Shown: in pieces, positions 1-63,248 of the stretch
Numbering within the stretch: the stretch's first letter is position 1
Layout of the letters: each line of letters opens with the position of its first letter
Assembly: GCA_000004985.1 (NCBI GenBank)
Contig: GG738898.1
From: Naegleria gruberi
Taxonomy: Eukaryota
DNA length: 64,000 nucleotides
Reading direction: 5' to 3' (one strand)
Position numbers and translations under genes: made by a program
Notes under the pieces: generated by a model
What the model saw: only the letters and a program-made list of their open reading frames with translations
The model's database searches: none
What the model was told of the DNA's origin: nothing

Positions 1-167
1 TAATGGATATATTTTTTAATTTCATTTCATCAACTAATTCAAATGCCTTTGTTAAATTTCCTATTTTTTTATAAAATATTAAATTATAAAATTAAATTAA
101 TAATATTAAAATTAAAATAATAAATAATAAAATTAATAAAATATTAAAATTAAAATAAAAATAAAAC

Positions 168-1147: not shown

Positions 1148-1178
<31 letters not shown>

Positions 1179-5132: not shown

Positions 5133-5221
5133 TTTTAAATTACTAGTTATTAGTTGATTTTCCTTGTGACAATGAAAATAACGTGTTTAAATTTCTTTTT
5201 TTACAACTTTCAAGAAAAAAT

Positions 5222-5257
5222 TATCGCGATCTACAGGACTCGAACCTGTGCGGGTCT
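5222..5257 (-). tRNA. Truncated tRNA 3' half (T-arm plus acceptor 3' strand). The 5' part is missing in the 50-N gap at 5258-5307.
   Basis: Minus-strand 'ACAGGTTCGAGTCCTGT' is a perfect 5-bp T-stem with a GTTCGAGTC T-loop, followed by a 7-nt acceptor strand 'AGATCGC' and a discriminator. The anticodon is not visible, so identity is unknown. Confidence 0.5.
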
Positions 5258-5307
5258 NNNNNNNNNNNNNNNNNNNNNNNNNNNNNNNNNNNNNNNNNNN
5301 NNNNNNN

Positions 5308-10293: not shown

Positions 10294-11969
10294 TTATTGC
10301 ACTAAACACTTCTTTTGTGGACGAACTTTACTACAATAATTGTCATCTTTGGTGACGGCAATTGTTCTCAAAATGACACTACTCAAATCATCAAGGCCAT
10401 ATCCTGTTTTGGAGCTAGTTTCAATATAAGTGGCACAACCCATATTTTTGGCCATCAACTCTCCTTGTTCGAATGTGATTGGTTTTTCTTCATATTTAAG
10501 AATGAATTCCTTATTAAGAATTGAATCAGTACGATAGTCAATCTTGGTATTCACTAATGCCACAGGAGCAGTACAGTGGTGTCTGATTTCTGGAAGCCAT
10601 TTGGTGACAACATTGAAAAATGAAGCCTCTGACACACAACTAAAGTTCACTAAGAACAAAGATGTCCCTGGGTAGGACTATTACAATATTATTACAAAAA
10701 ATATAATTTCAATACTTACCAATGGACGTAATCTAAATAATATTAAGAAAACAAAAATAAAAATGATTAATTACCTATCATAATCTAAAATTGGTTAATT
10801 TCAATTAAATCCATTCAAAAAAACTCACCTTCAGGACCAGCAGTATCCCTTTGTAAATGTTAACAAATTATTAAAGAGATAGCTCAAATAACTTACCATA
10901 GACCGATTGAATAAGTCTTGTCTTCAACTTTTACACTTATATTGTGATTGTCAAACACAGTTGGAATATAATCATTTGGATAATCTCCAGAAGAATAGCG
11001 TTTTAATAGTGTTGTTTTACCTACTGCTCCATCTCCTACCGCAACAACCTTAAAAACACCATAAGGAGGAGGATACTTGTCTAACATTTCAACCACATGA
11101 GAATAGTTTAAAAGTTCAGACTTGGAACAATACTGTCTTCCATCTTTACGTTGTTTTACCTCCTCAATTTTCAATGTTCTTTCAATATTCTTCTTTTCAA
11201 CTTTTGACATGATGGCTTGAACAGCTTGAGTGAGATTTTCCTTGTAATTTGACTTTTTACGTAAATAGGAATCGAAAATTCTTGATTGAGTGGTATCAAA
11301 AACATATTTACAAAGTACATAATCATAGGAACCAACAGTTTGTTTTGATGCCTCCTTAAAATCACTCAATTTTTTGAAATAAAAATCTTCCCAATATTGA
11401 TCTTCAGTTGTTAAAGTGCAAATTCTCAATGATTTGGAAACCAAATGTAATTTCATTAAATCTTGAATGCTAAGAAATGATAGAACTGTTCTGAAAATGT
11501 CATCATTCACCTTCTCATTAAATAAATCAATATTAAATGAGCTTGTTTCTGATTTGGTTATTGATTTTCCGTCTTTCTTACTTGAAGTAATAGACGTAGT
11601 TGTTGGTGGAGAAACTGTCAAAACGTCAGGAGTCTTTTGAAATAATCCTCCAACTACAAAATAAGTAATAGAGGAATCAGTGGAAGGAATTTGCACAAGA
11701 GCATGAAGTACAGGTTGAGCTTCTTCCTTATTAGAATCATTGAAAATGGATGAAAGAGAATGAGTTGTATCAATCTTCCAACCTTGGCCAACATTTCCCA
11801 AATCAAGACATGTACAATCTGTGAAATCTTGATTTTGATTACAACCACCAACACTATACAATGTGTTTCCTTCCAAAACCATTGAATGTCCATATCTAGC
11901 AAACTGTTCACTCAAATTTGATGCAATAATCTCAGCATTCACTACCAATCTGTCAACACTCTCTACCAA
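10294..11969 (-). CDS. F-box/Kelch-like N-terminal domain fused to a Rho/Rac GTPase. There are five exons (minus strand): 11969..10897, 10848..10829, 10784..10775 (10 nt), 10732..10720 (13 nt) and 10677..10294. The true 5' end is probably beyond the gap at 12030.
   Basis: Exon 1 has a Kelch-like 'GHSMVLEGNTLYSVGG' and an F-box 'IFRTVLSFLSIQDLMKLHLVSKSLRI', followed in the same ORF by G1 'VVAVGDGAVGKTTL' and 'YIPTVFDNH'. Splicing through four GT..AG introns of 42-48 nt reconstitutes '[29 protein letters not shown]...EIRHHC...LVNTKID', ending in CaaX 'CLVQ'. Confidence 0.85.
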
Positions 11970-28499: not shown

Positions 28500-29448
28500 T
28501 TATTGCCTCTTATATTTAATGATATATTCAGGATAACATTGATATCTATCATAAACAATTAATTCTCTATATGCACTATTTGATGCATTTGAGTTTCCAA
28601 TTACACTATCAAAGACTCTTCTGTTAGTACCGTTAATTTCTGGAGGTCTTCTTTCATTTGTCATTCTTTTAGGTGTGTAATAGATTTGTCTTCCCAATAA
28701 AACTCTGCATAAGAATAGAGAATATTCATTATTTCGATCTGGAGTACAATATTGATCACTTTTAGAACAATATTCTGCAAAATAAACTCCAGCTCCAAAT
28801 AAACCTCCCAAACTTGCAACTCTTTCATCAAATCCATGCTCTGAAATGCTTGAAATAAATTCTGGTTTTGTTCCATGCCATAAATATTTTTCATTCATTC
28901 CACCATTCAATCCAACTGTTTTCATCCACTCAAAGGATTTACTTGTTTTTGCTAATTGTTCTGTTTGAACTTGGATTGAGTTCAGGGGATCTTGATAAGA
29001 TGTCAAATGATTCATTCTTGATTTATATGAAGTGAAAAGTGATGCATTTTCAATTCTTGAAACACTTGAAACAACCATTTTGGAATAGTTCATTCTCACT
29101 TGTTGATCTCTTCCACTTCCAAGAGTTGTTGAATTACAAGAAATATCAATTACACCTTGAATAGTATTCTTCAAATATTTTGTAACATCCACAATGTAAT
29201 ATCTTTTAGAATAGGATGTAAATGTATTTCTCTTCCAATAACTTGGCAAGACAATATTCAATTGTTTGGATTTAGATTCTTCCAAATCCATTTCCATTGT
29301 TTGTAATTTCTTTTCCTTAATTTTCAATTTGCTGATTTGATTGGAAATTTCTTCTCTTTTTTTGACACTTTGATTGGTGAATTCTTTTGTTTTCTGTTCA
29401 AGATTCTTAATTTTTTCTTGAAGATTGAGTTTATCTTGATTAAAGATN
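28500..29448 (-). CDS. Poly(ADP-ribose) polymerase catalytic-domain protein, C-terminal part. It continues 5' through the gap at 29449-30718, and the likely N-terminal 'MSLVSSEDLFYSL...' lies at 30859..30719.
   Basis: H-Y-E PARP signature: 'LWHGTKPEFISSISEHGF', 'GAGVYFAEYCSKSDQYC', 'LFLCRVLLGR', 'YRELIVYD'. The upstream part is coiled-coil 'NQDKLNLQEKIKNLEQK'. Confidence 0.82.
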
Positions 29449-31419
29449 NNNNNNNNNNNNNNNNNNNNNNNNNNNNNNNNNNNNNNNNNNNNNNNNNNNN
29501 NNNNNNNNNNNNNNNNNNNNNNNNNNNNNNNNNNNNNNNNNNNNNNNNNNNNNNNNNNNNNNNNNNNNNNNNNNNNNNNNNNNNNNNNNNNNNNNNNNNN
29601 NNNNNNNNNNNNNNNNNNNNNNNNNNNNNNNNNNNNNNNNNNNNNNNNNNNNNNNNNNNNNNNNNNNNNNNNNNNNNNNNNNNNNNNNNNNNNNNNNNNN
29701 NNNNNNNNNNNNNNNNNNNNNNNNNNNNNNNNNNNNNNNNNNNNNNNNNNNNNNNNNNNNNNNNNNNNNNNNNNNNNNNNNNNNNNNNNNNNNNNNNNNN
29801 NNNNNNNNNNNNNNNNNNNNNNNNNNNNNNNNNNNNNNNNNNNNNNNNNNNNNNNNNNNNNNNNNNNNNNNNNNNNNNNNNNNNNNNNNNNNNNNNNNNN
29901 NNNNNNNNNNNNNNNNNNNNNNNNNNNNNNNNNNNNNNNNNNNNNNNNNNNNNNNNNNNNNNNNNNNNNNNNNNNNNNNNNNNNNNNNNNNNNNNNNNNN
30001 NNNNNNNNNNNNNNNNNNNNNNNNNNNNNNNNNNNNNNNNNNNNNNNNNNNNNNNNNNNNNNNNNNNNNNNNNNNNNNNNNNNNNNNNNNNNNNNNNNNN
30101 NNNNNNNNNNNNNNNNNNNNNNNNNNNNNNNNNNNNNNNNNNNNNNNNNNNNNNNNNNNNNNNNNNNNNNNNNNNNNNNNNNNNNNNNNNNNNNNNNNNN
30201 NNNNNNNNNNNNNNNNNNNNNNNNNNNNNNNNNNNNNNNNNNNNNNNNNNNNNNNNNNNNNNNNNNNNNNNNNNNNNNNNNNNNNNNNNNNNNNNNNNNN
30301 NNNNNNNNNNNNNNNNNNNNNNNNNNNNNNNNNNNNNNNNNNNNNNNNNNNNNNNNNNNNNNNNNNNNNNNNNNNNNNNNNNNNNNNNNNNNNNNNNNNN
30401 NNNNNNNNNNNNNNNNNNNNNNNNNNNNNNNNNNNNNNNNNNNNNNNNNNNNNNNNNNNNNNNNNNNNNNNNNNNNNNNNNNNNNNNNNNNNNNNNNNNN
30501 NNNNNNNNNNNNNNNNNNNNNNNNNNNNNNNNNNNNNNNNNNNNNNNNNNNNNNNNNNNNNNNNNNNNNNNNNNNNNNNNNNNNNNNNNNNNNNNNNNNN
30601 NNNNNNNNNNNNNNNNNNNNNNNNNNNNNNNNNNNNNNNNNNNNNNNNNNNNNNNNNNNNNNNNNNNNNNNNNNNNNNNNNNNNNNNNNNNNNNNNNNNN
30701 NNNNNNNNNNNNNNNNNNCAATTGTGAAGTATCCTCATGTGTAATATTCAATCCTTCAATAACTACAATATATTGATGACTGTAAAATGAATAGAAATCT
30801 CTTGGCCTTCGTTTATAACTAAGGGAATAAAACAAATCTTCACTCGAAACCAGTGACAAACGATGTGCATTGTGCCTTCTTTTGAAATTAAGGGAAAAGC
30901 CACTAACTATGGCACCAATTTGTTCTTCCTTTCCACTACCTTCATCAAATCTCTAAATACGCATAGAGACCTTCCTCTCAATGTTGTACACCTCGATATT
31001 ATATCCACGATGATGATCTTTACTATTGATAGTTGTCATGTTTTTTTAAGATTGTGTTTATTTTTAAAACATTTGTCGACCTTAATATATCTTAATACAT
31101 TTGTGAAACATAGAAAATTGTTTGCAAAATCACAAAAATAATTGCATTCTAAATTTGTTTTTTGTTCTTGAATCAATTAAGAGAAATGATCAGTTTCTGT
31201 CTTTTGAAAGGTTATGTTGTCTTGAGGATAATAGAAATGATTATCAACTGATACATCACTGTGTTAAATACAACAATACCTCAAGTCACCAATTTTCGAA
31301 AACAACACCTTATTCATCTTTCTAAATAAGTATACTTCCACATTAATCACTGTGATTATCCGACTCCTCCTAACCAACTCATGAGTTGAAGATCAACCAT
31401 TAACCACAAAGCTTGAAAA

Positions 31420-35033: not shown

Positions 35034-36955
35034 ATGTCAGTAAAAGGATTCTCACCATCATTATCATCGATCACTAACACATTGATGATCATTTTGATGA
35101 TGATTAATTTATTATCAATGGTTCATTCATCATTGTGTGCATCATCATCATCATGGACACAAAAACATGGTGATTTCTACATGTCCAATTCCATTCCTGA
35201 TTTTCCACTTTCCCATTCATCATGGATTAGTATGAATTCTCCGATGCTTACCAAGATGAATTTGAAACTTGATTCTACATCATTGATATTTGCAAATGCA
35301 CCATTGAGTGGTAAATTATTGATGGTTCTTGATGATGATAATCAACAATTGGTGATCGCAAGTATTAATTGTACTAGCGGAGTATTTAATATTGAAAGAA
35401 ATTTGACAAGTGTTTATCCTGGAACGAAGAGAGTTNNNNNNNNNNNNNNNNNNNNNNNNNNNNNNNNNNNNNNNNNNNNNNNNNNNNNNNNNNNNNNNNN
35501 NNNNNNNNNNNNNNNNNNNNNNNNNNNNNNNNNNNNNNNNNNNNNNNNNNNNNNNNNNNNNNNNNNNNNNNNNNNNNNNNNNNNNNNNNNNNNNNNNNNN
35601 NNNNNNNNNNNNNNNNNNNNNNNNNNNNNNNNNNNNNNNNNNNNNNNNNNNNNNNNNNNNNNNNNNNNNNNNNNNNNNNNNNNNNNNNNNNNNNNNNNNN
35701 NNNNNNNNNNNNNNNNNNNNNNNNNNNNNNNNNNNNNNNNNNNNNNNNNNNNNNNNNNNNNNNNNNNNNNNNNNNNNNNNNNNNNNNNNNNNNNNNNNNN
35801 NNNNNNNNNNNNNNNNNNNNNNNNNNNNNNNNNNNNNNNNNNNNNNNNNNNNNNNNNNNNNNNNNNNNNNNNNNNNNNNNNNNNNNNNNNNNNNNNNNNN
35901 NNNNNNNNNNNNNNNNNNNNNNNNNNNNNNNNNNNNNNNNNNNNNNNNNNNNNNNNNNNNNNNNNNNNNNNNNNNNNNNNNNNNNNNNNNNNNNNNNNNN
36001 NNNNNNNNNNNNNNNNNNNNNNNNNNNNNNNNNNNNNNNNNNNNNNNNNNNNNNNNNNNNNNNNNNNNNNNNNNNNNNNNNNNNNNNNNNNNNNNNNNNN
36101 NNNNNNNNNNNNNNNNNNNNNNNNNNNNNNNNNNNNNNNNNNNNNNNNNNNNNNNNNNNNNNNNNNNNNNNNNNNNNNNNNNNNNNNNNNNNNNNNNNNN
36201 NNNNNNNNNNNNNNNNNNNNNNNNNNNNNNNNNNNNNNNNNNNNNNNNNNNNNNNNNNNNNNNNNNNNNNNNNNNNNNNNNNNNNNNNNNNNNNNNNNNN
36301 NNNNNNNNNNNNNNNNNNNNNNNNNNNNNNNNNNNNNNNNNNNNNNNNNNNNNNNNNNNNNNNNNNNNNNNNNNNNNNNNNNNNNNNNNNNNNNNNNNNN
36401 NNNNNNNNNNNNNNNNNNNNACTTTCCAATGATTGTAAGGTGGCTATTATTGATTTGGAAATGGAGACCATTATTGTGGATGGAAAGAGACAAGCCAATG
36501 TTAAAATTGATCGATCCCTAACGGAACAATCTGCAATTGTTACAGTAAGTTTATTTATTTATGCAATACTTAATGTTATGATGAAATTAAAGTATTACGG
36601 AGCTAAAGTTATTAAAATGTGTGATAAAACATTATCAAACACAGTCAATATCACAGATTTGATAAGAAATGAAAATTTAGGACATTTATCACTTGGCAAT
36701 TTTGAGCATTTTGTTTACAATGTTTTGGATGAAAAGGTTTACAGTGGAAAAAAAACTTTAACTGAGACATTTATTTGTAAAATTGAAAGTAATGGTAAAA
36801 TTGTTGGCAAAATTCAAAGACCCAAGTCAAATTTGATAGAAATTGAATTTCCATCAACTCCAAACTATAGACACAAAGCACTAGTGTTGGCACTTGCCTT
36901 ATTTTGTTTTGCAACATCAGGTGGTGGTGGTGTCGTCTTCCCAATGATCATTTAA
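35034..36955 (+). CDS. Hypothetical membrane/secreted protein interrupted by the gap at 35436-36420. The 3' part 36440..36955 ends in a hydrophobic tail. There is a candidate in-frame 48-nt intron at 36546..36593.
   Basis: N-terminal signal-anchor 'LMIILMMINLLSMVHSSLCA' and C-terminal 'ALVLALALFCFATSGGGGVVFPMII'. Confidence 0.45.
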
Positions 36956-42043: not shown

Positions 42044-43296
42044 TTGTGATTTCGGAAAACCCTTTTCCTTTTTTTTTTGAATTTTTTCAAGGTTTGTTTG
42101 AATTGCTTCGGATTGGTTTGAATTGGATTGAATTGCATCAGATTTGAAAAAAATTTGGCTGCCCGAATTAACTGATAGAGTGTATGTGAATGGAAAAGGT
42201 TTGGCAGACGAAGAGATTCAATTAATTAAATATAAATATGACAATTATCTGCTAATAATATACCTCCACACAAAATTGCTCGTCTTATTCGAGTGGAAAC
42301 CTTGTTTTCTCTTCCGACGATTAGAAAATATATGGAAAACCAAGAAAAATCAAAACCAGGTCGTCCAAGGTATTCTGGAAAATCTACACAATTGAATATG
42401 TTGGCCTTTATTAAAACTTGTTTTGAAATTATGCCCACTCTTTATCTGCAAGAGTTGCAACAATCTATTAAGGAAATATTTGGAAATGAGATATCATTAT
42501 CTCAATTATCGGATGTCAAAACCAAGATTTTGAATATCACTAACAAGAAAGTGGAATTATTAAGTAATTATCGGAAAAAACCTCATATTCAACAACATAG
42601 AAAACTTTACAGAGAATTGGTTCTTGGTTTCGAAATTGATGATTTGTTTTTCATTGACGAGTCCACTGTTACATACACCGATCTAGCAAGAAGGAGAGGT
42701 CACTCATTAAAAGGAACACCTGCAAGGAACTCATCTCATCATGTTTCGAATAAGAGATTTTCAATTATTGCTTGCATCAATAGATTGGTTGGAGTAGTTT
42801 ATTGTGAAGTCATTGATACAACCGAAAAAGGAGTGGATCAAATTATCTTTTCAAACTTCATGGATACTTTGAAACATTTAATTCCAAAAGACAAAGTGTG
42901 TGTTATGGACAATAGTTCAGTTCATAATAAGGAAACTTTGGTTGATTCCATGAAGGAAGCTGGAATACATGTTCTATTTCAAAGTAGATATTCACCAGAT
43001 TACACTCTAATTGAATTTTGTTTCTCGTGGTTGAAAAGTGAACTGAAAAGAGAAGAATATATAACGTACCCATTGGCTTTCTTGGTGAAACAAACCTTTG
43101 ATAGTATGCCAGTGGAAATTGTTCGAAAATATGTTGGACACGCCCAACAGAATTGGAAATCCAATAGATTGTAAGTTAAAATAAAGTTTGTTTTATTTGA
43201 TTGAATTGGTTTGAATTGGTTTGTATTGGATTTTGTTGGAAAAAAAATTGCAAAAAAATTCAAAAAAAAAAGGAAAAGGGTTTTCCGAAATCACAA
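42044..43296. mobile_element. Tc1/mariner-superfamily (DD34E) DNA transposon of 1253 bp with a TA target-site duplication (42042-43 and 43297-98). It has ~44-bp terminal inverted repeats plus subterminal 'GGTTTGAATTGG' direct repeats. The transposase gene is frameshifted.
   Basis: Left end 'TTGTGATTTCGGAAAACCCTTTTCC(T)nGAATTTTTT' equals the reverse complement of the right end '...GGAAAAGGGTTTTCCGAAATCACAA'. The internal ORF encodes an HTH 'KPGRPR' and the DDE core 'FFIDESTV', 'VCVMDNSSVHNK' and 'YSPDYTLIE', with 34 residues between the second D and the E. Confidence 0.85.
42329..43174 (+). CDS. Tc1-like transposase; probably a pseudogene.
   Basis: The N-terminal HTH segment 'MKKIWLPELTDRVYVNGKGLADEEIQLIKYKY' (42144..) is out of frame with the main ORF near 42240-42265, and there is no GT..AG to rescue it. 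Confidence 0.7.
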   Translation, partial: YMENQEKSKPGRPRYSGKSTQLNMLAFIKTCFEIMPTLYLQELQQSIKEIFGNEISLSQLSDVKTKILNITNKKVELLSNYRKKPHIQQHRKLYRELVLGFEIDDLFFIDESTVTYTDLARRRGHSLKGTPARNSSHHVSNKRFSIIACINRLVGVVYCEVIDTTEKGVDQIIFSNFMDTLKHLIPKDKVCVMDNSSVHNKETLVDSMKEAGIHVLFQSRYSPDYTLIEFCFSWLKSELKREEYITYPLAFLVKQTFDSMPVEIVRKYVGHAQQNWKSNRL

Positions 43297-44139: not shown

Positions 44140-46108
44140 TCACCAATTTGACACTCTACCAAAATGGGTATACTTTTTGTGATTGATAAGGAGTTTAGGA
44201 AAACCCACAGCTTTCTCAACTGTCTGAATTGCCCATTCCAAACCATCAGATAGACCTAGACCAGTAATTGCACAACACGATTGAACATACCATTTTTGCC
44301 TAAATGTATGTAATTTCAGCAGTGAAACCAATTCAACACGACTCATAGATGTAGATATATCTTGTTTGTTAGCAAACACTAGAATAGGACAATTTTTGAG
44401 CTCATCATCTTTGAGTATTCTGTTTAGGTCATCAGTTGCTTCCTGAAGTCTCTGTCTATCATTCGAATCCAGCACGAACAGTATGCAGTCAGTATTGCTC
44501 AAGTAATGTTTCCAAACCTTTTGTGGACTTCGGTTCTTTTCATTCCCGCCAATATCCCACTAGAATTTTAAAAGTAAATTTCAAATATTTTCCAAAAACC
44601 TCAACTTACAATGCAAATTTCAGCAGTGCCACGTTCCAAGGTTTCAACATTGAAGCCAATGGTGGGTGTCTAAACGAAACTAATTAATGAATAGATTAAA
44701 TTTCACTTACAGTAACTCCAGGTTCTCCACTTTTAAATTGGTTTAGAATTGTGGTCTTACCAGATGAATCAAGGCCAAGTAATAGGAATCTAAGCTTTGT
44801 ATTAATATAATTAACCTTTTCAGGAATTTTTTGAATGAGATATTTCTTCCAAAGCTCATCAGGTATGACACGTTCTTTCCTAAACATGTAAATGTGTAAC
44901 AGATCCTGTATCTCTTCAATCAAGCTCTCAAATTGTGGCATTGACTTTCTAATTCCAATAAATATGAGACAGAATGAGTAGAGGATTTCGTAATCACACA
45001 AACTCCAATCATATTTCCTCAATAATCCATATGCATCTTTGAATCTATTTTCAATATCTTGAAGCATCCACATTACTATATATGCCATTTTGTTTCCTTC
45101 CACTTTAGAAAAATGAGGAGAATCTATCAAACCTTCAAATAATTCCAATGGAAGTGATGAAACAATCTTTAACACAGGTACATATAATAGTGCTAATAGT
45201 AATTGAGTTAACTTTTTTGAAATCATGATATTATCAAGGAATGGATAATACTTAATAAGTAATTTTGGATTTTCCATGTATTTCTTTTCATCCTCATCAT
45301 TTGCATATTCCAATTTCTCTCCACGATATACTGTATCAGAAATAACACATGATGAATTATAACCCAACATGTAGCAAACCTTAGGTATGATAATATCCTT
45401 GCAATCAGCTGAAAATTCCAAACATCTGAGTCCAATAGTGAGGGCATTGAATTGATTTACAACTCGTGAAATAGCTCTGATTAAACTTTCAATTTGATAT
45501 TCGTCAGCAATTTTCAATAATTCCAATAAATCTTTCCATCCAATAATTCTTGCATCATTTTCATTGAATAATCGTTTAGAAAGTCCTAACTTTCCTACGT
45601 GAATAAATTCAATCACCATTTCAAAATAATCACACCACGATTTTTCACAATTTTGTAAAGTCATTTCGTTTGATTTCGACTCGGCCATTTCAATATTTAA
45701 CATTGCTTCAAAAACCTTGCTTTCCAACATGATTAATTCTCTAGAAACCAATAATTTCTTTCTAATTTCAGGTATGTGAATTGTAAAATAAATAGTTTCT
45801 TTCTTAGTTTCTAATAGATTAAACTTTTTAATTAGAAAACTATTCTCTGAATCATCATGACATTGCTCAACTTTAAACAAATCATGATAAATTTTCGGAG
45901 AGTTGTTGTTAGCTGATGTCAATTGATCCTCTTCATCTCTCATCAAGTAGTAATACATTGAATTTTGGACCTTTCGAATAGCAACTTCATTGTGTTGGTC
46001 ACTGAAAAAGCCATCTTCCAATCCACTTCCTTCTTTACAGTACCAATGTGACCACGAATCCAATAGAAATTCATCATCATTCATTTTTTCAATTATGAAA
46101 TTGATCAT
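44140..46108 (-). CDS. BTB/POZ-domain N-terminal region (~440 aa) fused to an ARF/ARL-family GTPase. Exons (minus strand) are 46108..44711, 44669..44610 and 44559..44140; introns are 44710..44670 and 44609..44560, both GTAAGT..TAG.
   Basis: BTB-like 'IYFTIHIPEIRKKLLVSRELIMLESKVFEAMLN'. The ARF motifs are G1 'LLGLDSSGKTTIL', 'T|PTIGFNVETLERGTAEICI|WDIGGNEKNRSPQKVW', 'LVFANKQD' and 'CAITGLGLSDGLEWA'. Switch II is DIGGN rather than DxGGQ. Confidence 0.8.
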
Positions 46109-46275: not shown

Positions 46276-46512
46276 CTAATCCGATCCACCAAGGAGACGC
46301 AACACCAAATGAATAGTAGCATCCTGTCTGACACCATACTCATTCAAAGTTCTATCATCTTGCATTTGTTTACCAGAGTAGATGAGTGATTGTGATTCAG
46401 TTTTGATTCCCTCCTTCATAAAGATCTTTTCCTTCAGGTGAGAAACTCTATCATTACCTTCAACTCTCAGAGCAATGGTTTTGGAGGTGATACTCTTTAC
46501 GAAAATGTCCAT
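46276..46512 (-). CDS. Divergent ubiquitin-like protein (78 aa) ending in LRLLGG-SD.
   Basis: 'MDIFVKSITSKTIALRVEGNDRVSHLKEKIFMKEGIKTESQSLIYSGKQMQDDRTLNEYGVRQDATIHLVLRLLGGSD' has the ubiquitin beta-grasp pattern (about 35-40% identity to ubiquitin by eye) with a di-Gly before a 2-aa tail. Codon usage is biased to ttc/atc/aag/ggt. Confidence 0.75.
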   Translation of the reverse strand: MDIFVKSITSKTIALRVEGNDRVSHLKEKIFMKEGIKTESQSLIYSGKQMQDDRTLNEYGVRQDATIHLVLRLLGGSD

Positions 46513-46658
46513 CTTGTTATTTGTTTTGTTTTTTTTGAGTTTGTTGATTTCAAGTTGGAAACACATTTGCGACTTTTTATTGGAATTTTTTGGTTCTATT
46601 GCGCGGTGGAAGCGAAATTTCGTTTTCTGTGGTTTTCAGGATTTTGTAAATTTTACCT

Positions 46659-47552
46659 TCACCAAATGAACTTTTCAAAGTCGAGTTTGTGGTTTGTGAA
46701 TTGGGAAGTAAGTGGTTTGTTGGTAAATGAAAACTCTCTAAAAGAAACTTCCGGGTCCATGTAACTAATTGCCTTCTCAATGATAATATCCCATTCATCG
46801 TTCGTTAGTTTCAATTCTTTCAAAGTTATTGATAATTCAGCATTTATGCCATCATTGCTATGTTTTAAATATAACTGAGTCCAAGTTGAAAACCTTACCA
46901 TTCCTAGCTCTCCAAACTCAATTTCAAAACAATGACCTTTATAGGCATACAAACCAATGTTGTCTCCCTCGTCATAGTCAAATCTTGTAATTTTTGGGAT
47001 GGCATTCGAAAAGTTTTCTGACTGTTGATCGATTTTACTCAGCTCAGCTTTGAAAATTCCAGTCTTTTTGCTGTTAAAAACGAACTCAATTTCTTTTTCA
47101 ACTTTCCCAAATACTAAAGTTACAGCGTTTTTTGCAAACTCACCGACAATAGCTTTATCAGCCAATGAATAGGAATTGACTTTAAAGGAATGATTAAGCT
47201 TAATAAGCATGTTATAAACTATTCCGTAAGGTGTGTTTTTCCAAACTCTTCTAAATTGCTTAGAAACTGACGAAACACTGATTGTGCATTCTGAAGGGAG
47301 ATAATTCAATATTTCTTTAACAACTTCATCTGGCTGATTACCTAAAAGTATGGCCATTCTGTTGCAAACCGGTACGGTTTCTTCTTCTTGTTTTTGTTTC
47401 TTACAGTTATTTTGCTCACTTTCGGAAATGTATTTTCGTTTAAAACCATTAGTTTGCTCTTCTTCTAATGAACCAACATCCGTTTCATATTCTTCCCTTA
47501 ATACACAATCATCATTCATATTACTTTGCTCGACCTTTGCAAATTTGGACAT
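46659..47552 (-). CDS. Hypothetical F-box-like protein, paralog A of a tandem pair.
   Basis: 'ILNYLPSECTISVSSVSKQFRRVWKNTPYGIVY', 'QSENFSNAIPKITRFDY', 'FEIEFGELGMVRF' and 'NDEWDIIIEKA' are shared with 47606..48430. Confidence 0.65.
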   Translation of the reverse strand: MSKFAKVEQSNMNDDCVLREEYETDVGSLEEEQTNGFKRKYISESEQNNCKKQKQEEETVPVCNRMAILLGNQPDEVVKEILNYLPSECTISVSSVSKQFRRVWKNTPYGIVYNMLIKLNHSFKVNSYSLADKAIVGEFAKNAVTLVFGKVEKEIEFVFNSKKTGIFKAELSKIDQQSENFSNAIPKITRFDYDEGDNIGLYAYKGHCFEIEFGELGMVRFSTWTQLYLKHSNDGINAELSITLKELKLTNDEWDIIIEKAISYMDPEVSFREFSFTNKPLTSQFTNHKLDFEKFIW

Positions 47553-47605
47553 TTTTTTAAAAAAATAAAAGGAATCTGATATATTTAGTTGAAGAGCTGA
47601 TGATA

Positions 47606-48430
47606 CTATGGTATTTCCAATTCATGCCCAGTAAATACTGATTTACCCATATCATCGTAATAGTCAAAGTCCTCAAACTCTTGACATGAATCAATATAAT
47701 CACTTGCTTGTCCAATAATTATATCCCATTCTTCATTTGTTAACTCTAAACCTTTCAGTTCTGCAGATATTCCATGATAGGAAGAACCCTCTTCATACTT
47801 GCTATATGGATCCCATCCCCAAAATCTAACCATTCCCAGTTCTCCAAATTCAATTTCAAAGCCAGCAGCTTTACACACAAGTGTTCCATAGTCCATTTTG
47901 CTTGTTCTTTCATAATCAAATCCAGTAATTTTTGAAATGGCATTTGAAAAGTTTTCTGACTGTTTTTTGGTTTTTCTTAGTTCACTAATTAGCCGATCTG
48001 CCTTTCGTAAATGAAATAAATTCTTCTTTTCTCTTTTATATTGATCCATTACTCCTAAAACAATTTCTTTTGTAAATTTTCTACAATCAACTTTGTCATC
48101 CAATGAATAAGAATGTTTCTTAAAGGAATAGTTCAATTGAATGACCATGGTATAAACTATTCCATGAGGAGTTTGTTTCCAAGCTCTTCTAAATTGTTGA
48201 GAAACGCTCGAAGCTTGAATCGAAGATTTGTAATTCATAAAGTTTAGTATTTGTTCAATAATTTCATCTGGTTGACTTCCGAGAAGTGTTTGCATTCCTA
48301 AATATTCCTTTTTGCTTTTCTTGTAATACGAATATTCATGTTTAAAAACATATTTTCTTTTTGTGGTTTTTTCTTGCTCATACGAATAGTCGTCAGAATC
48401 GCTCGAGCATGATGAATCACTTTCAGACAT
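47606..48430 (-). CDS. Hypothetical F-box-like protein, paralog B of the tandem pair.
   Basis: 'ILNFMNYKSSIQASSVSQQFRRAWKQTPHGIVY', 'QSENFSNAISKITGFDY', 'FEIEFGELGMVRF' and 'NEEWDIIIGQA'. Confidence 0.65.
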   Translation of the reverse strand: MSESDSSCSSDSDDYSYEQEKTTKRKYVFKHEYSYYKKSKKEYLGMQTLLGSQPDEIIEQILNFMNYKSSIQASSVSQQFRRAWKQTPHGIVYTMVIQLNYSFKKHSYSLDDKVDCRKFTKEIVLGVMDQYKREKKNLFHLRKADRLISELRKTKKQSENFSNAISKITGFDYERTSKMDYGTLVCKAAGFEIEFGELGMVRFWGWDPYSKYEEGSSYHGISAELKGLELTNEEWDIIIGQASDYIDSCQEFEDFDYYDDMGKSVFTGHELEIP

Positions 48431-52223: not shown

Positions 52224-53999
52224 TTACTGAACTGATTTGAAATCTAAAATAATTCTTATTGCACCAGCAGCAAGGATAACAAGTGGTGCAGGAATATCAT
52301 AAACAGATAACATTAAAATACTGAACACAACAGTACATGCTGAGGCAATATGCAAGTTTGGAACACTTCCCAACCATAAAATGTAAACAGCAGTGAAAAC
52401 AAATCCGACAGAGGTTGCATTAACACCTTTGAGAATACTCTTAACAATTTGCTTCTGTCTATATCTGTGCCAGAATGGTAAAGCTCCCCAAACGAAAAGG
52501 AATGCAGGTAAAAACAATGCTACCCAACAAATGACGGCACCAACCACATCACCCATAATACCTCCAACATAGGCAGAAATATTGAACATTGGTCCAGGTA
52601 AGGCACTTTGTAAGGCAAAACCATTCAAGAATGAATCCTCTGTCAAATAACCCAATTCTGAAAATTCATTCAAAATCATTGGTAAAACAACATGACCTCC
52701 ACCAAATATCAAACTTCCAATTCTGTAAAATCCTTCTGCCCATTCAAGTGGTGGATATTTCACAGAAATACGAGCAATAAACAATCCAAATAAGAGGACA
52801 AAGAATATTGTCAAGAAGATTATACCCATGAATGGTCTCATTGGTAGTGGAAGTTTGGTTTCTTCAACTGTTGGTGATGCTGTTGTAGGTGGCAAGTCTT
52901 GTTCGTCCTCTTCTTCCTTTGGTGGATTGGATTCCAAATCAGCTGCATCTTCTTCATTTCTAAGGAGTTGTGGTTCAGATTCGGCTCCTGTTTCTTCCAA
53001 TTCAAATGAAGAATCACTTGTTGTTCTATTGTTGCCACGTCTCTTCAGCTTACTGAGCTTTTCACTGATATACTGCTTGAACTCTTTGATATTCATAATA
53101 AATACACGTGCAAAGAACTTGGCGGATGCAAAGAAACCTTTTGGTTTTCTCAATCCGTGCTCCTTGATTGTTCTCTGATAGAATATTTGGGTATATTCAA
53201 ATACTACATTGATAAATCCTCCACAAAACATGACAATTAAAACAGTATACCATTTTTGCCAAATGATAAATACTGCAAATGCAGCAATTAATAATGTTCT
53301 TGAAATCCTATCAGTGGTCAATCGTGATGATAACGTATATGCTGCATGAAGTACAATTGAGACAGCAGCACATGAAAATCCATTCAAAGCAACTTTCAAA
53401 TAATATGGAAACATTTCAGTGACATTTTGATCCTTTAACAAAACACCAGCACAGGCCATAATAATAGCAGTCGGTAAAGCAAAGAAAATAAATGATAATA
53501 ATCCTCCCAAATAACCAGCATGAATTGTACCAAGAGCAATCACTAATTGTGTACTAGTTGGTCCAGGTAATGATTGACAAACAGCAAACAATTCAGTAAA
53601 TTGTTCAAGAGTAACCCATTGCCTTTTCGTCACAAAATTCTCCTGTAAAATTGAAATATGTGCAGCTGGCCCACCAAAACTCAACAATCCCAAAGGAATC
53701 ATCGATGATGTAATATCCCATAATTTTAATAAATAACCTAAAAAGAAAGTTCTTCTCAATCTTTGTATTCTGGATTCCGGTTGAATATTTGGTAATGGTG
53801 ATTGTTGTTGGTCCTCTTCATCTTCATTATTAATTGATATTGTATGATGATGATTGTATTCTTGTTGTTGTTGTTCATCTTCCTCGATTATTATTTCTTC
53901 CTCATTATTATCCGATGATGATCCAATCACATTCTGTCTATTGATGATAATGTTCGATTCTCTTGGAATGTTTCCTTCCTCATCATGAAGGCTTTGCAT
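52224..53999 (-). CDS. Chromate ion transporter (CHR family).
   Basis: 'LGLLSFGGPAAHISILQENFVTKRQWVTLEQFTELFAVCQSLPGPTSTQLV', and a second half 'GSLIFGGGHVVLPMILNEF...FLNGFALQSALPGPMFN', which is the two-repeat CHR topology. There is an acidic insertion in the middle. Confidence 0.85.
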   Translation of the reverse strand: MQSLHDEEGNIPRESNIIINRQNVIGSSSDNNEEEIIIEEDEQQQQEYNHHHTISINNEDEEDQQQSPLPNIQPESRIQRLRRTFFLGYLLKLWDITSSMIPLGLLSFGGPAAHISILQENFVTKRQWVTLEQFTELFAVCQSLPGPTSTQLVIALGTIHAGYLGGLLSFIFFALPTAIIMACAGVLLKDQNVTEMFPYYLKVALNGFSCAAVSIVLHAAYTLSSRLTTDRISRTLLIAAFAVFIIWQKWYTVLIVMFCGGFINVVFEYTQIFYQRTIKEHGLRKPKGFFASAKFFARVFIMNIKEFKQYISEKLSKLKRRGNNRTTSDSSFELEETGAESEPQLLRNEEDAADLESNPPKEEEDEQDLPPTTASPTVEETKLPLPMRPFMGIIFLTIFFVLLFGLFIARISVKYPPLEWAEGFYRIGSLIFGGGHVVLPMILNEFSELGYLTEDSFLNGFALQSALPGPMFNISAYVGGIMGDVVGAVICWVALFLPAFLFVWGALPFWHRYRQKQIVKSILKGVNATSVGFVFTAVYILWLGSVPNLHIASACTVVFSILMLSVYDIPAPLVILAAGAIRIILDFKSVQ

Positions 54000-60104: not shown

Positions 60105-61460
60105 ATGTTTAATTCAATATCGGCCAATGATGATTTTATGAATTCTTTAATGACTGGAGAGGAGGAAACGTTTACGAGTAGTGGGAGTGCTGGTCAGCAT
60201 CGAAATAGATATTTGGAAAAGTCGAAACAGAGCAAATCACCAACAATGAATTCTTCATCACCTTCATCATCACCTAAATTACAGGATTCAACAAATAGAC
60301 GATATACAATGACACCTGGTGGTCAACCAAAGTTAGCTTCTGAGATGGTTCCTATTCCATCTTCCCGAAATACGAATTACGGAAGAAGATTGAGATATAA
60401 TTTGTTTGGAACATCTGCTCCATCGAATGGAATGGATAGTAATAATTCGAATATGAGTTCGCAACCACCAATTGACTCATTACCAGAACAACAAATTTCT
60501 AATTCTGTTGCAACTTCTGTAATAAGCAGAACCAACAGTTTGTACAGTAATAATAGTACACAAGTACCTTATAATCCTATCGAGTTCCAAATTGAAAGAG
60601 AAAATCTCACTTTTAATACTGATCAAGAAGTGCCCAGGTTTAAAATTGGCATTTTTGGACGAAATTCTTCCATATTTACAATTCTATTTGTTCTTCACCT
60701 TAAAAGTGAATGGTATTACATGGATGGAAAGTTAAAATCGACGGATTCATTTAGATTGGATCCCACTTCTGACAGCTTTATATCAACAAGGCCAATTATG
60801 AATCCAATAGAATCTGATGAAAATGAATTAGCACTTGTTTCGTTGGAATGGATTGATATGTCTCCTACACATAACCAATACCAACTAAAGGATACTGAAG
60901 GATTCGTGTATGTTTTAGATATTGGTTGCAAAGTAAATGGTGAAGAATATTTGCCAAAGAGTTTTGAGGATCAATTACGAGTTGCAATTCAGTACTTGCA
61001 AACATATATCAAGAGGAGAATAATGAGGAATAACAAGAACGAAAATTTTGAGGAATTTGAGGAACCAGTTGTGTTCTTGTGTTATCATGACGAGGATTTG
61101 TACAATTTGAGAGAGGAAGAATTAAACAATTCTCTAGATAAGAGAAATTCTATAATAATGACAAATGAAGACGATTCACCATTAGAAGAAAGCGCCAGGT
61201 CTATAAATATTCGAAATGCAATTCAAAAAACCTTAAACGAACAAATACCACTCAAGTTAAAGAATACCAAAGTTTATGTTCAGGAGGCTAAAGATCACAA
61301 ATCCATAGGATCCTTCATAGACAATAGTTTCGCCTTTCTTGCAAGCGAAATTACATTATCCAAATTCATGAATGAACACAAAGCGAAAAATGGCCAAAAT
61401 TCAATATCATCTTTCTTTGCCTCTAGTAGAGACGAGGAAGTTTCAGATAATCTATTGTAA
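60105..61460 (+). CDS. Hypothetical protein of 451 aa with an S/N-rich N-terminus.
   Basis: Single ORF whose 3' end overlaps the stop of the convergent DUF4116 gene by 9 nt. Confidence 0.5.
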   Translation: MFNSISANDDFMNSLMTGEEETFTSSGSAGQHRNRYLEKSKQSKSPTMNSSSPSSSPKLQDSTNRRYTMTPGGQPKLASEMVPIPSSRNTNYGRRLRYNLFGTSAPSNGMDSNNSNMSSQPPIDSLPEQQISNSVATSVISRTNSLYSNNSTQVPYNPIEFQIERENLTFNTDQEVPRFKIGIFGRNSSIFTILFVLHLKSEWYYMDGKLKSTDSFRLDPTSDSFISTRPIMNPIESDENELALVSLEWIDMSPTHNQYQLKDTEGFVYVLDIGCKVNGEEYLPKSFEDQLRVAIQYLQTYIKRRIMRNNKNENFEEFEEPVVFLCYHDEDLYNLREEELNNSLDKRNSIIMTNEDDSPLEESARSINIRNAIQKTLNEQIPLKLKNTKVYVQEAKDHKSIGSFIDNSFAFLASEITLSKFMNEHKAKNGQNSISSFFASSRDEEVSDNLL

Positions 61461-63248
61461 ATTATTTAAATGTGGAATCTTTTCCTTAAGCAAGTTGTAA
61501 ACCTCTTCATTCTTCATGAACATGGTTGGAAGGTGTAGATAAATATATTTTTCAATATCAGCAGGAGTGTTGTGTTGGAGTGCCTTAACAACAAGTTCTG
61601 AGGTAAGAAAATTGTAAGGAATAATCTTGAAATTAGTTGGTTCAGTAATTGCCAATTTGATAAAATCTGTATCTCTCTTTTGATAAAAGTCTAACCCAAC
61701 ATATAATTTTGGCTGGGCTGTCAATATCTTGATAATATTCTCTTTTGAAGTAAATTTTTCTGGAACATCTATCCATCTATATTGCATATGCTGCAAAGCA
61801 ATTATAACCATCTCAAGAGTTAATATCTCTTCCTTAATCATTGAAAGAATTGAAGGACTACAATTATATCCTTGAGAGAGAGCCGTCATTACTAGATCTG
61901 GAGTTTGGTGCACATATGAAATTGTTGCTGGATTAGTCATCACAAGATGCTGAATCATGTTATCACTCAAGTAAACATCCTTAGGCAGTATTTTCAACAA
62001 CTCTACTCCATATTTGTTATTTGCTAATTTCATTAATACATCCTCGTCCAGAAGTAATGACTTATCAACACAAGAAAGGTCAAGTTTTTGCCCATAAAAA
62101 TTTCTAACTAAACTCAGTAATTCCAATATGAATTGTTTGTTTGATCTCAGTTTAGGACTTATTAAGGGGAATGCCGAAGTGTGTACTTGTAAGAGTAATA
62201 GAGCTTTAGGATAATCATGGCAAAACAAATAAAGTGTTTGATCGGGTATATAATCAAAGTTCGAAAAATAGGTACCTCCTTTTTGGATCATTGAGTTTAA
62301 TGTTGTTGTTAACACTTCAACATCAACTTTCAAAGATTCAGGAAGGGATTTGTAAAGAGAGCCACGATCATGGAATACTAATTTGAGAGCTACCTCCTTA
62401 TCCGATTTCAATCTATCAGAAATAATGTTAAAGAGAATCAAGGTATTGTTATAAGTTATTGATTCCAATATCAAGCTCTTGTCGTCACTAACTTCAAAAG
62501 GCACTGTTGCACTAAAGCTGTAAGTAATATTTTTGAAAGTTGTCAACACAATATCTCTATCCTTCTTGAGTCTTTCCGAGATGAATTCATATTTGCGATA
62601 GGAAGATTTTACAGCACTAAGTGCTATTTCCTTATCGTCTTTGAAGAGGGGTGATATTTTTGATATACACAGTCCATTTTTCACTGCCTCTAAGCAAATA
62701 TCACGATCCTCTTTCAAGTTGTCAGACAGGGACAGATAAGTATTGCATGTCTTTTGAATCATATTCAATGCATATTCTTTGTTCTCTATTATTGACTTGG
62801 GAATGAATTCTACAACAGAAAGAGTAGGCATCTCCTCCATTCTGAACGGCTTGGATCTGATAGTCTCTTGTGCAATTTCTGTTCCTTTCACTCTTTCAGA
62901 ACAAAATCTAACAGTAAGAGGATGCATAAGCAGAATGTCTTTCATAAATATTTCGTCATCTTTGATTTCATCTGAAGCATATTGAATAGCATCTAAATAA
63001 TTTGACACAGCTGCACAAACAATATCTCTATTATTCCTTAGTTCTTTGGAAACATATTTCAATTGACTCCCATTATTCCTTAAATATTTCAACACAAATT
63101 CGGGATCATTCTTCTTTTCTTCAGTTGCGAACCTGATAGGCTCTCGTTTCGGTACAATTTTGAGATTCAACTTTTGTTGTGGTAATAGACTTTTGAACCA
63201 TTTCTTCATGTTACCTAACTTGTTAAATGAATAATTCTCGAATCCCAT
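61452..63248 (-). CDS. DUF4116 repeat-containing protein whose N-terminus is in the terminal gap at 63249-64000.
   Basis: Tandem ~30-aa repeats of the DUF4116 type: 'LKYVSKELRNNRDIVCAAVSNYLDAIQYASDEIKDD', 'DNLKEDRDICLEAVKNG', 'ERLKKDRDIVLTT' and 'DRLKSDKEVALKLV'. Confidence 0.65.
   Translation of the reverse strand: MGFENYSFNKLGNMKKWFKSLLPQQKLNLKIVPKREPIRFATEEKKNDPEFVLKYLRNNGSQLKYVSKELRNNRDIVCAAVSNYLDAIQYASDEIKDDEIFMKDILLMHPLTVRFCSERVKGTEIAQETIRSKPFRMEEMPTLSVVEFIPKSIIENKEYALNMIQKTCNTYLSLSDNLKEDRDICLEAVKNGLCISKISPLFKDDKEIALSAVKSSYRKYEFISERLKKDRDIVLTTFKNITYSFSATVPFEVSDDKSLILESITYNNTLILFNIISDRLKSDKEVALKLVFHDRGSLYKSLPESLKVDVEVLTTTLNSMIQKGGTYFSNFDYIPDQTLYLFCHDYPKALLLLQVHTSAFPLISPKLRSNKQFILELLSLVRNFYGQKLDLSCVDKSLLLDEDVLMKLANNKYGVELLKILPKDVYLSDNMIQHLVMTNPATISYVHQTPDLVMTALSQGYNCSPSILSMIKEEILTLEMVIIALQHMQYRWIDVPEKFTSKENIIKILTAQPKLYVGLDFYQKRDTDFIKLAITEPTNFKIIPYNFLTSELVVKALQHNTPADIEKYIYLHLPTMFMKNEEVYNLLKEKIPHLNNLQ

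What the first reader, a model, noticed from the sequence alone, without database searches (positions are those of the whole stretch)
44140..46108. BTB-ARF-like GTPase fusion with switch-II Gln replaced by Asn
A ~440-aa N-terminal region with a BTB/POZ-like fold is spliced through a phase-0 GTAAGT intron onto a canonical ARF core ('GLDSSGKTTIL', 'PTIGFNVE', 'NKQD', 'CAITG'). The catalytic Gln of 'DxGGQ' is Asn ('WDIGGNEKNR'). That predicts a GTPase-impaired, constitutively GTP-biased ARF tethered to a Cul3 adaptor. The known ARF fusion is TRIM23/ARD1 (RING-ARF), not BTB-ARF.
Basis: partly seen in the sequence, partly recalled or inferred. Interest (0 to 1): 0.7.

Follow-up and report, generated by a model that had tools for sequence, protein, structure and literature searches.

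The report
Naegleria BTB-ARF fusion gene, already catalogued
This is a real Naegleria gruberi gene that joins a ubiquitin-ligase adaptor domain (BTB) to an ARF-type GTP-binding domain lacking its catalytic glutamine, but the gene and its domain fusion were already published in 2021, so only the loss of the glutamine across the family is new.

Summary

One detail is wrong. Both introns lie inside the ARF domain, and the P-loop sits in exon 1 in the same ORF as the BTB region. The fusion therefore does not depend on splicing.

The window comes from Naegleria gruberi NEG-M. The gene is XP_002672368.1, named NgrArf1l and flagged "BTB" in Vargová et al. 2021 (GBE). Their sequence is identical to residues 9-625 of my model. 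So the claim that BTB-ARF is not a known architecture is wrong.

What I add:
- The family is restricted to Naegleria and Willaertia, plus unassigned metagenome contigs.
- Its BTB keeps the Cul3-contact phi-x-E motif.
- The catalytic Gln is replaced in most members (N, A, G, S, T, M, L, D). It is kept in three of eleven lineages and in one of five N. gruberi paralogs.
- A second-strain allele keeps Asn492, with pN/pS about 0.18.

That the protein is GTP-locked and works with Cul3 is plausible but untested. Interest is low to moderate.

The parts
44140..46108 (-). Whole coding region of NgrArf1l (BTB-BACK-like-ARF), ATG to TGA, 625 aa. The public model starts at Met9 (46084).
44711..46108 (-). 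Exon 1 (aa 1-466): N-terminal region, BTB, BACK-like helices, and the ARF P-loop and helix 1.
   Evidence: The ORF runs on into a stop inside intron 1 (VSEI*).
45455..45802 (-). BTB/POZ domain (aa 103-218).
45680..45688 (-). Met141-Ala-Glu143, a phi-x-E motif at the position of the Cul3-contact motif of SPOP and KLHL3.
   Evidence: The phmmer alignment to SPOP pairs query iEMaES with SPOP hEMeES. The motif is defined in PMC3616122. It is kept in 10 of 12 family members.
44831..45454 (-). All-helical region (aa 219-426), 3-box/BACK-like, ending in a conserved D-E-x-W helix (aa 417-425).
44221..44830 (-). ARF GTPase domain (aa 427-599), interrupted by the two introns.
   Evidence: Pfam PF00025, E 2.4e-54. 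Arf1 structures at E about 1e-49.
44753..44776 (-). P-loop GLDSSGKT (G1).
44670..44710 (-). Intron 1, 41 nt, GTAAGT..TAG, phase 0.
   Evidence: Same position in L001. No differences from the strain allele L006 over all 41 nt.
44610..44669 (-). Exon 2 (aa 467-486), switch I and interswitch: TPTIGFNVETLERGTAEICI.
44560..44609 (-). Intron 2, 50 nt, GTAAGT..TAG, phase 0.
   Evidence: Same position in L001, L002 and L005. It holds the only indel within the aligned gene region of the strain allele.
44542..44544 (-). Codon AAT = Asn492, at the position of the catalytic Gln71 of Arf1.
   Evidence: Kept in allele L006, where the neighbouring Gly codon has a synonymous change.
44359..44370 (-). NKQD (G4, guanine specificity).
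44158..44166 (-). His-Phe-Gly in the C-terminal tail. An aromatic/hydrophobic-Phe-Gly motif recurs in the tails of family members.
   Evidence: Alignments. NgrArf1c, 1j and 1k tails.

Best explanation
The gene is NgrArf1l of Naegleria gruberi. It belongs to a family restricted to Naegleria and Willaertia in which an Arf1-derived G domain sits C-terminal to a BTB plus BACK-like module. That is the position where Kelch or MATH substrate-binding domains sit in classical Cul3 adaptors.

Most likely mechanism (inferred):
1. The BTB-BACK-like part dimerises and docks on Cul3 through the phi-x-E motif and 3-box-like helices.
2. The ARF domain still binds guanine nucleotide, because G1, switch-I Thr, G4 and G5 are intact.
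3. Lacking the catalytic Gln (Asn492) and having a lengthened switch II, it hydrolyses GTP slowly or not at all by the usual ArfGAP route.
4. It therefore acts as a long-lived GTP-form interaction module that recruits ARF effectors or partners to the ligase, or gates the adaptor, rather than as a fast membrane switch.
5. It has no Gly2 or myristoylated amphipathic helix, so the canonical ARF way of inserting into membranes is not available.

Shown: the architecture, motifs, fold, family distribution, purifying selection and recurrent Gln loss. Inferred: Cul3 binding, nucleotide state and targets.
For: Identity:
- Window ORFs match N. gruberi NEG-M proteins exactly.
- The published NgrArf1l equals aa 9-625 of my model.

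Architecture:
- Pfam Arf E 2.4e-54 and BTB E 2.4e-6.
- BTB in 10 of 14 relatives, best E 6.6e-10.
- AlphaFold model of the exon-1 product: pLDDT 80.2, pTM 0.79.
- All top 50 Foldseek PDB hits are of the same kind.

Cul3 motif:
- Query EMAES aligns to SPOP EMEES.
- phi-x-E is the conserved Cul3-contact motif, and KLHL3 E85A abolishes measurable Cul3 binding (PMC3616122).

G domain:
- The Arf1 alignment shows only the Q->N change and the insertion in switch II. The P-loop, TPTIGFNVE, NKQD and CAI are kept.

Family (phmmer of the N-terminal region against 1.84 billion proteins found 15 representatives; every one that carries a source name is from Naegleria or Willaertia). Residue at the Gln position:
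- N: window gene
- A: NgrArf1k / L001
- G: L002
- S: N. fowleri P0074, N. lovaniensis P0068, NgrArlX2
- T: N. lovaniensis P0061
- M: L005
- L: NgrArf1j
- D, with GG->CN: L003
- Q: NgrArf1c / P0079, N. lovaniensis P0064, Willaertia P0069/78

- A rough NJ tree places the Q-keeping members among the Q-less ones.

Selection:
- Strain allele L006 has 6 synonymous and 4 non-synonymous changes in 239 codons.
- pN/pS is 0.18, binomial P 0.009.
- There is no exon indel, and Asn492 is kept.

Precedents:
- Rnd, RhoBTB and RhoH lack Gly12, Ala59 and Gln61 and are GTPase-defective (PMC8072805).
- BTB domains of RhoBTB/RacA take part in cullin-3 ligase complexes (PMC8305917).
Against: - No biochemical or expression data exist for this protein.
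- I did not test whether N. gruberi has a Cul3.
- The phi-x-E motif and 3-box-like helices are necessary but not sufficient for Cul3 binding, and many BTB proteins only oligomerise.
- Asn differs from Gln by one methylene and might still position water. GTPases without the Gln can hydrolyse through a GAP-supplied or in-cis residue. From memory, examples are Rap with RapGAP, and TRIM23, whose ARF domain I recall has Lys at this position. K458I is described as GTPase-dead in PMC12075517.
- Several unfused divergent N. gruberi Arf paralogs also lack Gln (Arf1g K, Arf1h L, ArlX4 G). Gln loss may therefore reflect general divergence rather than the fusion.
- The strain comparison rests on only 10 substitutions.
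Confidence: 0.5

Rival explanations
1. The BTB-BACK-like region serves only as a dimerisation or oligomerisation scaffold and has no link to Cul3. It brings two ARF domains together, and GTP hydrolysis, if any, is triggered by G-domain dimerisation or by an in-cis element of the N-terminal region. That would make the canonical Gln dispensable.
For: - The Gln position is free to vary (eight different residues) while the P-loop and NKxD are mostly kept. This fits a hydrolysis mechanism that does not use Gln.
- TRIM23 shows that an E3-linked ARF domain can be an active GTPase: K458I is called GTPase-dead in PMC12075517. That its N-terminal part acts as a GAP is from memory.
Against: - The best structural matches are the Cul3-adaptor subclass, with the 3-box/BACK extension.
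- The phi-x-E Cul3-contact motif is conserved in 10 of 12 members. A pure dimeriser has no need for it.
Confidence: 0.2
2. RhoBTB-like autoregulation. The ARF domain is not a substrate receptor but folds back on the BTB-BACK-like module. It controls the adaptor's own access to Cul3 and its own turnover, and other surfaces recognise the substrates.
For: - It has the same general design as RhoBTB/RacA: an atypical small G domain lacking the catalytic residues plus BTB, linked to cullin-3 (PMC8072805; PMC8305917).
- Conserved N-terminal SHWY, pre-ARF D-E-x-W and C-terminal x-F-G motifs could be intramolecular or partner contacts.
Against: - The domain order is reversed relative to RhoBTB, and there is one BTB rather than two.
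- That the RhoBTB G domain binds its own BTB is recalled from memory and not verified here.
Confidence: 0.2
3. A decaying or functionless lineage-specific paralogue. The Q->N change and the switch II insertion are drift in a redundant gene copy and have no mechanistic meaning.
For: - N. gruberi has many divergent Arf1 paralogues with altered switch II.
- Family members are only 24-56% identical.
- Some are clearly degenerate: L003 has GG->CN, and P0061 has NKxD->NMQD.
Against: - The 625-codon ORF is intact, with canonical splice sites.
- All other G motifs are intact.
- pN/pS is 0.18 against a second strain, with no exon indels, while indels accumulate right after the stop codon.
- The N-terminal module is conserved between Naegleria and Willaertia.
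Confidence: 0.1

Closest known systems
NgrArf1l (XP_002672368.1) and its paralogues NgrArf1j/1k: BTB-ARF proteins of Naegleria gruberi listed in Vargová et al. 2021, Genome Biol Evol 13:evab157 (PMC8358228)
   Same: It is the same gene. The published 617-aa sequence equals aa 9-625 of the model. It is classed as an Arf1-derived paralogue, flagged 'BTB', and lacks Gly2 and myristoylation. The paper notes that ARF family members have repeatedly been recruited into ubiquitin circuits through BTB or F-box domains.
   Different: The gene is not different. The paper does not mention the catalytic glutamine, switch II or hydrolysis: zero occurrences in the main text. It does not flag NgrArf1c or NgrArlX2 as BTB proteins, although both share the same N-terminal module. 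My model allows a start 8 codons upstream.
TRIM23 / ARD1 (RING-B-box-coiled coil-ARF)
   Same: An Arf-like domain at the C-terminus of a ubiquitin-ligase module. The ARF domain is unmyristoylated and internal. From memory, its ARF domain also has a non-Gln residue (Lys458) at the catalytic position. K458I is described as GTPase-dead (PMC12075517).
   Different: TRIM23 is itself a RING E3. Here Pfam finds no RING, B-box or coiled coil, and the partner module is a BTB adaptor that would need Cul3/Rbx1. TRIM23 is a holozoan group, whereas this family is heterolobosean. The two fusions are independent.
RhoBTB / Dictyostelium RacA (Rho-BTB-BTB)
   Same: A small G domain that lacks the catalytic residues and is regarded as GTPase-defective, fused to BTB domains that take part in cullin-3 complexes (PMC8072805; PMC8305917).
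   Different: The G domain is Rho-type and N-terminal, with two BTB domains. Here it is Arf-type and C-terminal, with one BTB plus BACK-like helices. There is no homology of the fusion event.
BTB-BACK-Kelch and MATH-BTB Cul3 adaptors (KLHL11, KLHL3, KEAP1, KBTBD2/4, SPOP)
   Same: They are the best structural matches of the N-terminal module. The phi-x-E motif is shared, and helical 3-box/BACK-like helices follow the BTB.
   Different: The Kelch propeller is replaced by an ARF G domain. The helical region (about 200 aa) is longer than a BACK domain, and Pfam finds no BACK domain in it. Sequence identity is 12-21%.
Malawimonas Rab-BTB-BACK-Arf and F-box-ARF fusions (Vargová et al. 2021); Anaeramoeba RCC1-F-box-Arf (P0039)
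   Same: Independent fusions of ARF domains to cullin-adaptor modules. P0039 also lacks the Gln (WDIGGG).
   Different: They have different partner domains and come from different lineages. The phmmer search of this N-terminal module found no named relative outside Naegleria and Willaertia.

Membership tests
ARF family small GTPase (Pfam PF00025) | Profile match to the Arf domain above the curated cut-off. | tested here: met
   183.8 bits against a cut-off of 22.3, E 2.4e-54, profile positions 3-173 of 174. Arf1 structures at E about 1e-49.
ARF family small GTPase (Pfam PF00025) | Nucleotide-binding motifs G1 GLDxxGKT, switch-I Thr, G4 NKxD, G5 CAx. | tested here: met
   GLDSSGKT, TPTIGFNVE, NKQD and CAI are all present.
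ARF family small GTPase (Pfam PF00025) | Catalytic Gln in WDxGGQ (Arf1 Gln71). | tested here: not met
   The motif reads WDIGGN. Asn492 pairs with the Gln of GGQ in the Arf1 structure sequences and in my alignment to human ARF1 and ARF6, and a 3-residue insertion lies downstream.
ARF family small GTPase (Pfam PF00025) | N-terminal Gly2 myristoylation and amphipathic helix. | tested here: not met
   The G domain starts at aa 427 of a 625-aa protein. The published table scores NgrArf1l as having no Gly2.
BTB/POZ Cul3 substrate adaptor | BTB fold. | tested here: met
BTB/POZ Cul3 substrate adaptor | phi-x-E Cul3-contact motif in the alpha3 region. | tested here: met
   M141-A-E143 aligns with SPOP M-E-E. 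The motif is defined in PMC3616122. It is conserved in 10 of 12 family members.
BTB/POZ Cul3 substrate adaptor | 3-box/BACK helices after the BTB domain. | tested here: inconclusive
   The predicted helices align over 149-195 residues with KLHL11 and A55 BTB-BACK. Pfam finds no BACK domain, and TM-scores are low (0.24-0.31).
BTB/POZ Cul3 substrate adaptor | Physical binding to Cul3, and presence of Cul3 in the organism. | not tested
Binding itself needs an experiment.
TRIM23/ARD1 | RING, B-box and coiled coil N-terminal to the ARF domain. | tested here: not met
   No RING or B-box hit at E <= 1.
RhoBTB | N-terminal Rho-type G domain followed by two BTB domains. | tested here: not met
   The G domain is Arf-type and C-terminal, and there is a single BTB domain.

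The most novel reading that the evidence does not exclude
Small GTPase domains that become hard-wired to cullin-adaptor modules (BTB or F-box) systematically lose their catalytic glutamine and become static GTP-form receptor domains. The evidence is the recurrent, independent Gln replacements in the Naegleria/Willaertia BTB-ARF family, the F-box-Rho gene with Gln->Pro in this same window, the Anaeramoeba F-box-Arf with Gln->Gly, and RhoBTB. NgrArf1l would then be a CRL3 substrate receptor that reads ARF effectors, a type of E3 receptor not characterised so far.
Probability: 0.25. Interest if true: 0.5.

Novelty: already known. Interest (0 to 1): 0.25.

Why it matters
The architecture is not new, so its value is modest. 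It gives a concrete, testable example of an ARF domain placed where Cul3 adaptors carry their substrate-binding domain, in an organism related to the pathogen N. fowleri, which has a family member (P0074). The family-wide replacement of the catalytic Gln was not discussed in the paper that catalogued these genes. It suggests that these ARF domains are used as long-lived binding modules rather than as cycling switches. If confirmed, this would add a convergent case beside RhoBTB and TRIM23 for how small G domains are wired into ubiquitin ligases.

Tried and rejected
1. Full-length homologue search. It was swamped by ARF hits, did not return the N. gruberi self-entry, and gave only two relatives with the N-terminal module. 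The search with the N-terminal region alone gave one. The exhaustive phmmer run was what defined the family.

2. Exact look-up of my 625-aa model. It is not in the collection because the public model starts at Met9. This was resolved through the paper's supplementary sequences.

3. Structure prediction of the full spliced protein. Only the exon-1 product was modelled, so there is no information on BTB-ARF domain packing.

4. phmmer of the N-terminal region against PDB sequences. It gave only weak SPOP hits (E 0.23). That alignment is useful but not significant on its own. The fold comparison was needed.

5. Early guesses at the organism (rotifer, dictyostelid, Rhizophagus) from composition and low-complexity proteins. 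I rejected them after the exact matches to N. gruberi proteins.

6. PMC4388676 was searched for the Cul3 motif and had nothing useful. P0035 was suspected to be TRIM23-like but turned out to be a Rab-B-box-Arf protein.

7. The idea that Gln loss is universal in the family. Rejected: NgrArf1c, N. lovaniensis P0064 and Willaertia P0069/78 keep GGQ.

8. The idea that Gln loss is specific to the fusions. Weakened: unfused N. gruberi Arf1g, Arf1h and ArlX4 also lack Gln.

Full report
**What is in the sequence**

The feature lies on the minus strand. An ATG at 46108 opens a 470-codon ORF that ends in a stop just inside a GTAAGT intron. Splicing at two short phase-0 introns gives a 625-aa product ending at the TGA at 44140:
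- intron 1: 44710..44670, 41 nt
- intron 2: 44609..44560, 50 nt
- both read GTAAGT...TAG

All quoted motifs are present: GLDSSGKT, TPTIGFNVE, WDIGGN, NKQD and CAITG.

Pfam gives Arf at E 2.4e-54 (aa 427-599). It gives BTB at E 2.4e-6, 28.1 bits against a curated cut-off of 20.5 (aa 103-218). The closest solved proteins are Arf1 from many species (E about 1e-49). In the printed alignments Asn492 pairs with the Gln of the target's GGQ (Arf1 Gln71). Three extra residues follow in switch II (NEKNRSPQKVW against QDKIR---PLW).

One point of the description is wrong. The introns do not join the BTB part to the ARF part. The ARF P-loop and first helix are in exon 1, in the same uninterrupted ORF as the N-terminal region, and both introns cut the ARF domain. 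The fusion is therefore a property of the ORF itself, not of a splicing prediction.

**Where it comes from, and whether it is known**

Exact look-ups of neighbouring window ORFs hit Naegleria gruberi NEG-M proteins on one 310-kb scaffold:
- Hsp70, XP_002672309.1
- an F-box protein, XP_002672370.1, at 47606-48430
- XP_002672371.1 at 52224-53999

Vargová et al. 2021 (PMC8358228) surveyed the ARF family across eukaryotes. [quoted passage not shown] Their table lists three N. gruberi proteins as Arf1-derived paralogues with the extra domain "BTB":
- NgrArf1j, XP_002679090.1
- NgrArf1k, XP_002672337.1
- NgrArf1l, XP_002672368.1

Their sequence of NgrArf1l (617 aa) is identical to residues 9-625 of my model, across both junctions. 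So this gene, its splice structure and its BTB-ARF architecture are already public.

The main text of that paper never mentions glutamine, switch II, catalysis or hydrolysis. The Gln-to-Asn point is not discussed there.

**The N-terminal module**

- KBTBD2
- vaccinia A55

Foldseek agrees: KBTBD4, SPOP, KBTBD2 and KLHL11.

The weak sequence alignment to SPOP pairs the query's I-E-M-A-E-S with SPOP's H-E-M-E-E-S. This is the phi-x-E motif. In KLHL3 (M83-S84-E85) and SPOP it buries the most surface against Cul3, and KLHL3 E85A disrupts Cul3 binding so severely that no Kd could be measured (PMC3616122). The motif (M141-A-E143) is kept in 10 of 12 family members.

About 200 residues of confident helices follow the BTB and align with BACK domains. 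Pfam does not call a BACK domain, so I call this region BACK-like.

**The family**

An exhaustive phmmer search with the N-terminal 438 residues against 1.84 billion representative proteins found only 15. The named ones are from N. gruberi, N. fowleri, N. lovaniensis and Willaertia magna. The rest are metagenome contigs. BTB is detected in 10 of 14 members scanned and Arf in 13 of 14.

Intron 1 is at the same position in L001. Intron 2 is at the same position in L001, L002 and L005.

Reading the switch II of every member I could complete gives the following at the catalytic position:

| Residue | Member |
|---|---|
| Asn | this gene |
| Ala | NgrArf1k and its strain allele L001, 99.5% identical |
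| Gly | L002 |
| Ser | N. fowleri P0074, N. lovaniensis P0068, NgrArlX2 |
| Thr | N. lovaniensis P0061 |
| Met | L005 |
| Leu, with a deletion | NgrArf1j |
| Asp, with GG->CN | L003 |
| Gln retained | NgrArf1c/P0079, N. lovaniensis P0064, Willaertia P0069/78 |

Within N. gruberi only one of the five paralogues that share this N-terminal module keeps the Gln. A rough neighbour-joining tree places the Gln-keeping members among the Gln-less ones, which suggests at least three independent losses. That tree is only indicative.

In this gene every other nucleotide-binding motif is canonical. Some relatives (L003, P0061) have further degenerate motifs.

**Is the gene under constraint?**

A metagenome contig (L006, ENA ERZ929261) carries a second-strain allele covering codons 387-625, both introns and the 3' flank.
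- It has 6 synonymous and 4 non-synonymous differences in 239 codons.
- There is no indel in the exons and a 1-nt indel in intron 2.
- Several indels begin right after the stop codon.
- The Asn codon is unchanged, next to a synonymous change in Gly491.
- pN/pS is 0.18. A deficit of non-synonymous changes this strong has binomial P 0.009.

The numbers are small but argue against a decaying copy. They independently support the exon-intron model.

**How it probably works**

These steps are inferred, not shown. The module order BTB, BACK-like, C-terminal domain is that of Cul3 substrate adaptors, with the ARF domain in the place of the Kelch propeller.

I think the most likely reading is a dimeric Cul3 adaptor, or at least a BTB scaffold. 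Its ARF domain binds GTP but is refractory to the usual Gln-dependent, ArfGAP-stimulated hydrolysis. It would then present a long-lived GTP-form surface to ARF effectors or partners. By my alignment to human ARF1, the equivalents of Phe51, Trp66 and Tyr81 (which I recall as the Arf1 effector triad) are present.

It cannot use the canonical myristoyl and amphipathic-helix membrane switch.

Precedents for natural loss of the catalytic residues giving GTPase-defective proteins are Rnd, RhoH and RhoBTB (PMC8072805). RhoBTB/RacA also couple such a G domain to BTB domains that take part in cullin-3 complexes (PMC8305917).

Rival readings:
- BTB acts as a pure oligomeriser, with hydrolysis driven by dimerisation or an in-cis element. 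TRIM23 shows that an E3-linked ARF can be an active GTPase, since K458I is called GTPase-dead (PMC12075517).
- A RhoBTB-like autoinhibitory role of the G domain.
- Drift in a redundant paralogue.

A caveat for all functional readings: several unfused divergent N. gruberi Arf paralogues also lack the Gln. Gln loss is therefore not specific to the fusion.

**Verdict**

GTP-locking and Cul3 binding are untested, and the novelty claim is wrong.

The gene is already annotated and its architecture already published. The modest addition here is threefold: the BTB is of the Cul3-adaptor type with its phi-x-E motif, the family is confined to Naegleria and Willaertia, and its catalytic Gln is replaced recurrently. 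Interest is 0.25.

Noticed in passing
window 10300-11969 (-): A second small GTPase fused to a ubiquitin-ligase adaptor module. The ORF at 10893-11969 has a Kelch-like region and a weak F-box hit (E 1.2e-3, 19.1 bits, just under the 20.5 cut-off), followed by a Rho/Rac G domain. Three micro-exons downstream, spliced by eye, give WDTAGPEDYDRLRPLSYPG, so the catalytic Gln61 is replaced by Pro. This parallels the BTB-ARF case.
   Followed up: partly
window 46276-48430 (-): Directly upstream on the same strand lies a cluster of ubiquitin-system genes. The first is a divergent ubiquitin-like gene, MDIFVK...LVLRLLGGSD, with 40/76 identities to ubiquitin and 35/76 to NEDD8 and a di-Gly followed by two residues, 168 bp from the BTB-ARF start. 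Beyond it are two F-box genes (46659-47552 and 47606-48430, the latter XP_002672370.1).
   Followed up: partly
window 44140-44220 and 46040-46060 (-); family alignment A1: Short conserved motifs lie outside the domains. They are an N-terminal S-H-W-Y, a D-E-x-W helix about 20 residues before the ARF P-loop strand, and an aromatic/hydrophobic-Phe-Gly motif in the C-terminal tail (HFG, YFG, IFG, RFG, FFG). All are present across Naegleria paralogues. Their function is unknown. They may be docking or intramolecular contacts.
   Followed up: no
window 42293-43174 (+): An ORF of a Tc1/mariner-type DDE transposase (Pfam DDE_3, E 2.8e-19) lies just downstream of the BTB-ARF gene. This exact ORF translation is not in the protein collection.
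   Followed up: no
window, several stretches (for example within 92-3436, 5183-7291, 29324-30859, 35034-36521): Long runs of N (masked or unsequenced gaps) interrupt several ORFs. ORF lists across these regions are artefactual.
   Followed up: no
window 61452-63248 (-): A 598-aa protein made of at least five DUF4116 repeats (E 1.2e-50).
   Followed up: no
proteins P0015, P0017 (Adineta vaga and relatives), P0002, P0005: Other unusual ARF architectures turned up in the searches. Rotifer ARF domains with a long C-terminal region read WDVGGR or WDIGGR (possibly the Arl17 group of Vargová et al.; I did not check this). There is a triple-tandem ARF protein with GGS/GGS/GGI, and a Mortierella tandem ARF.
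   Followed up: no
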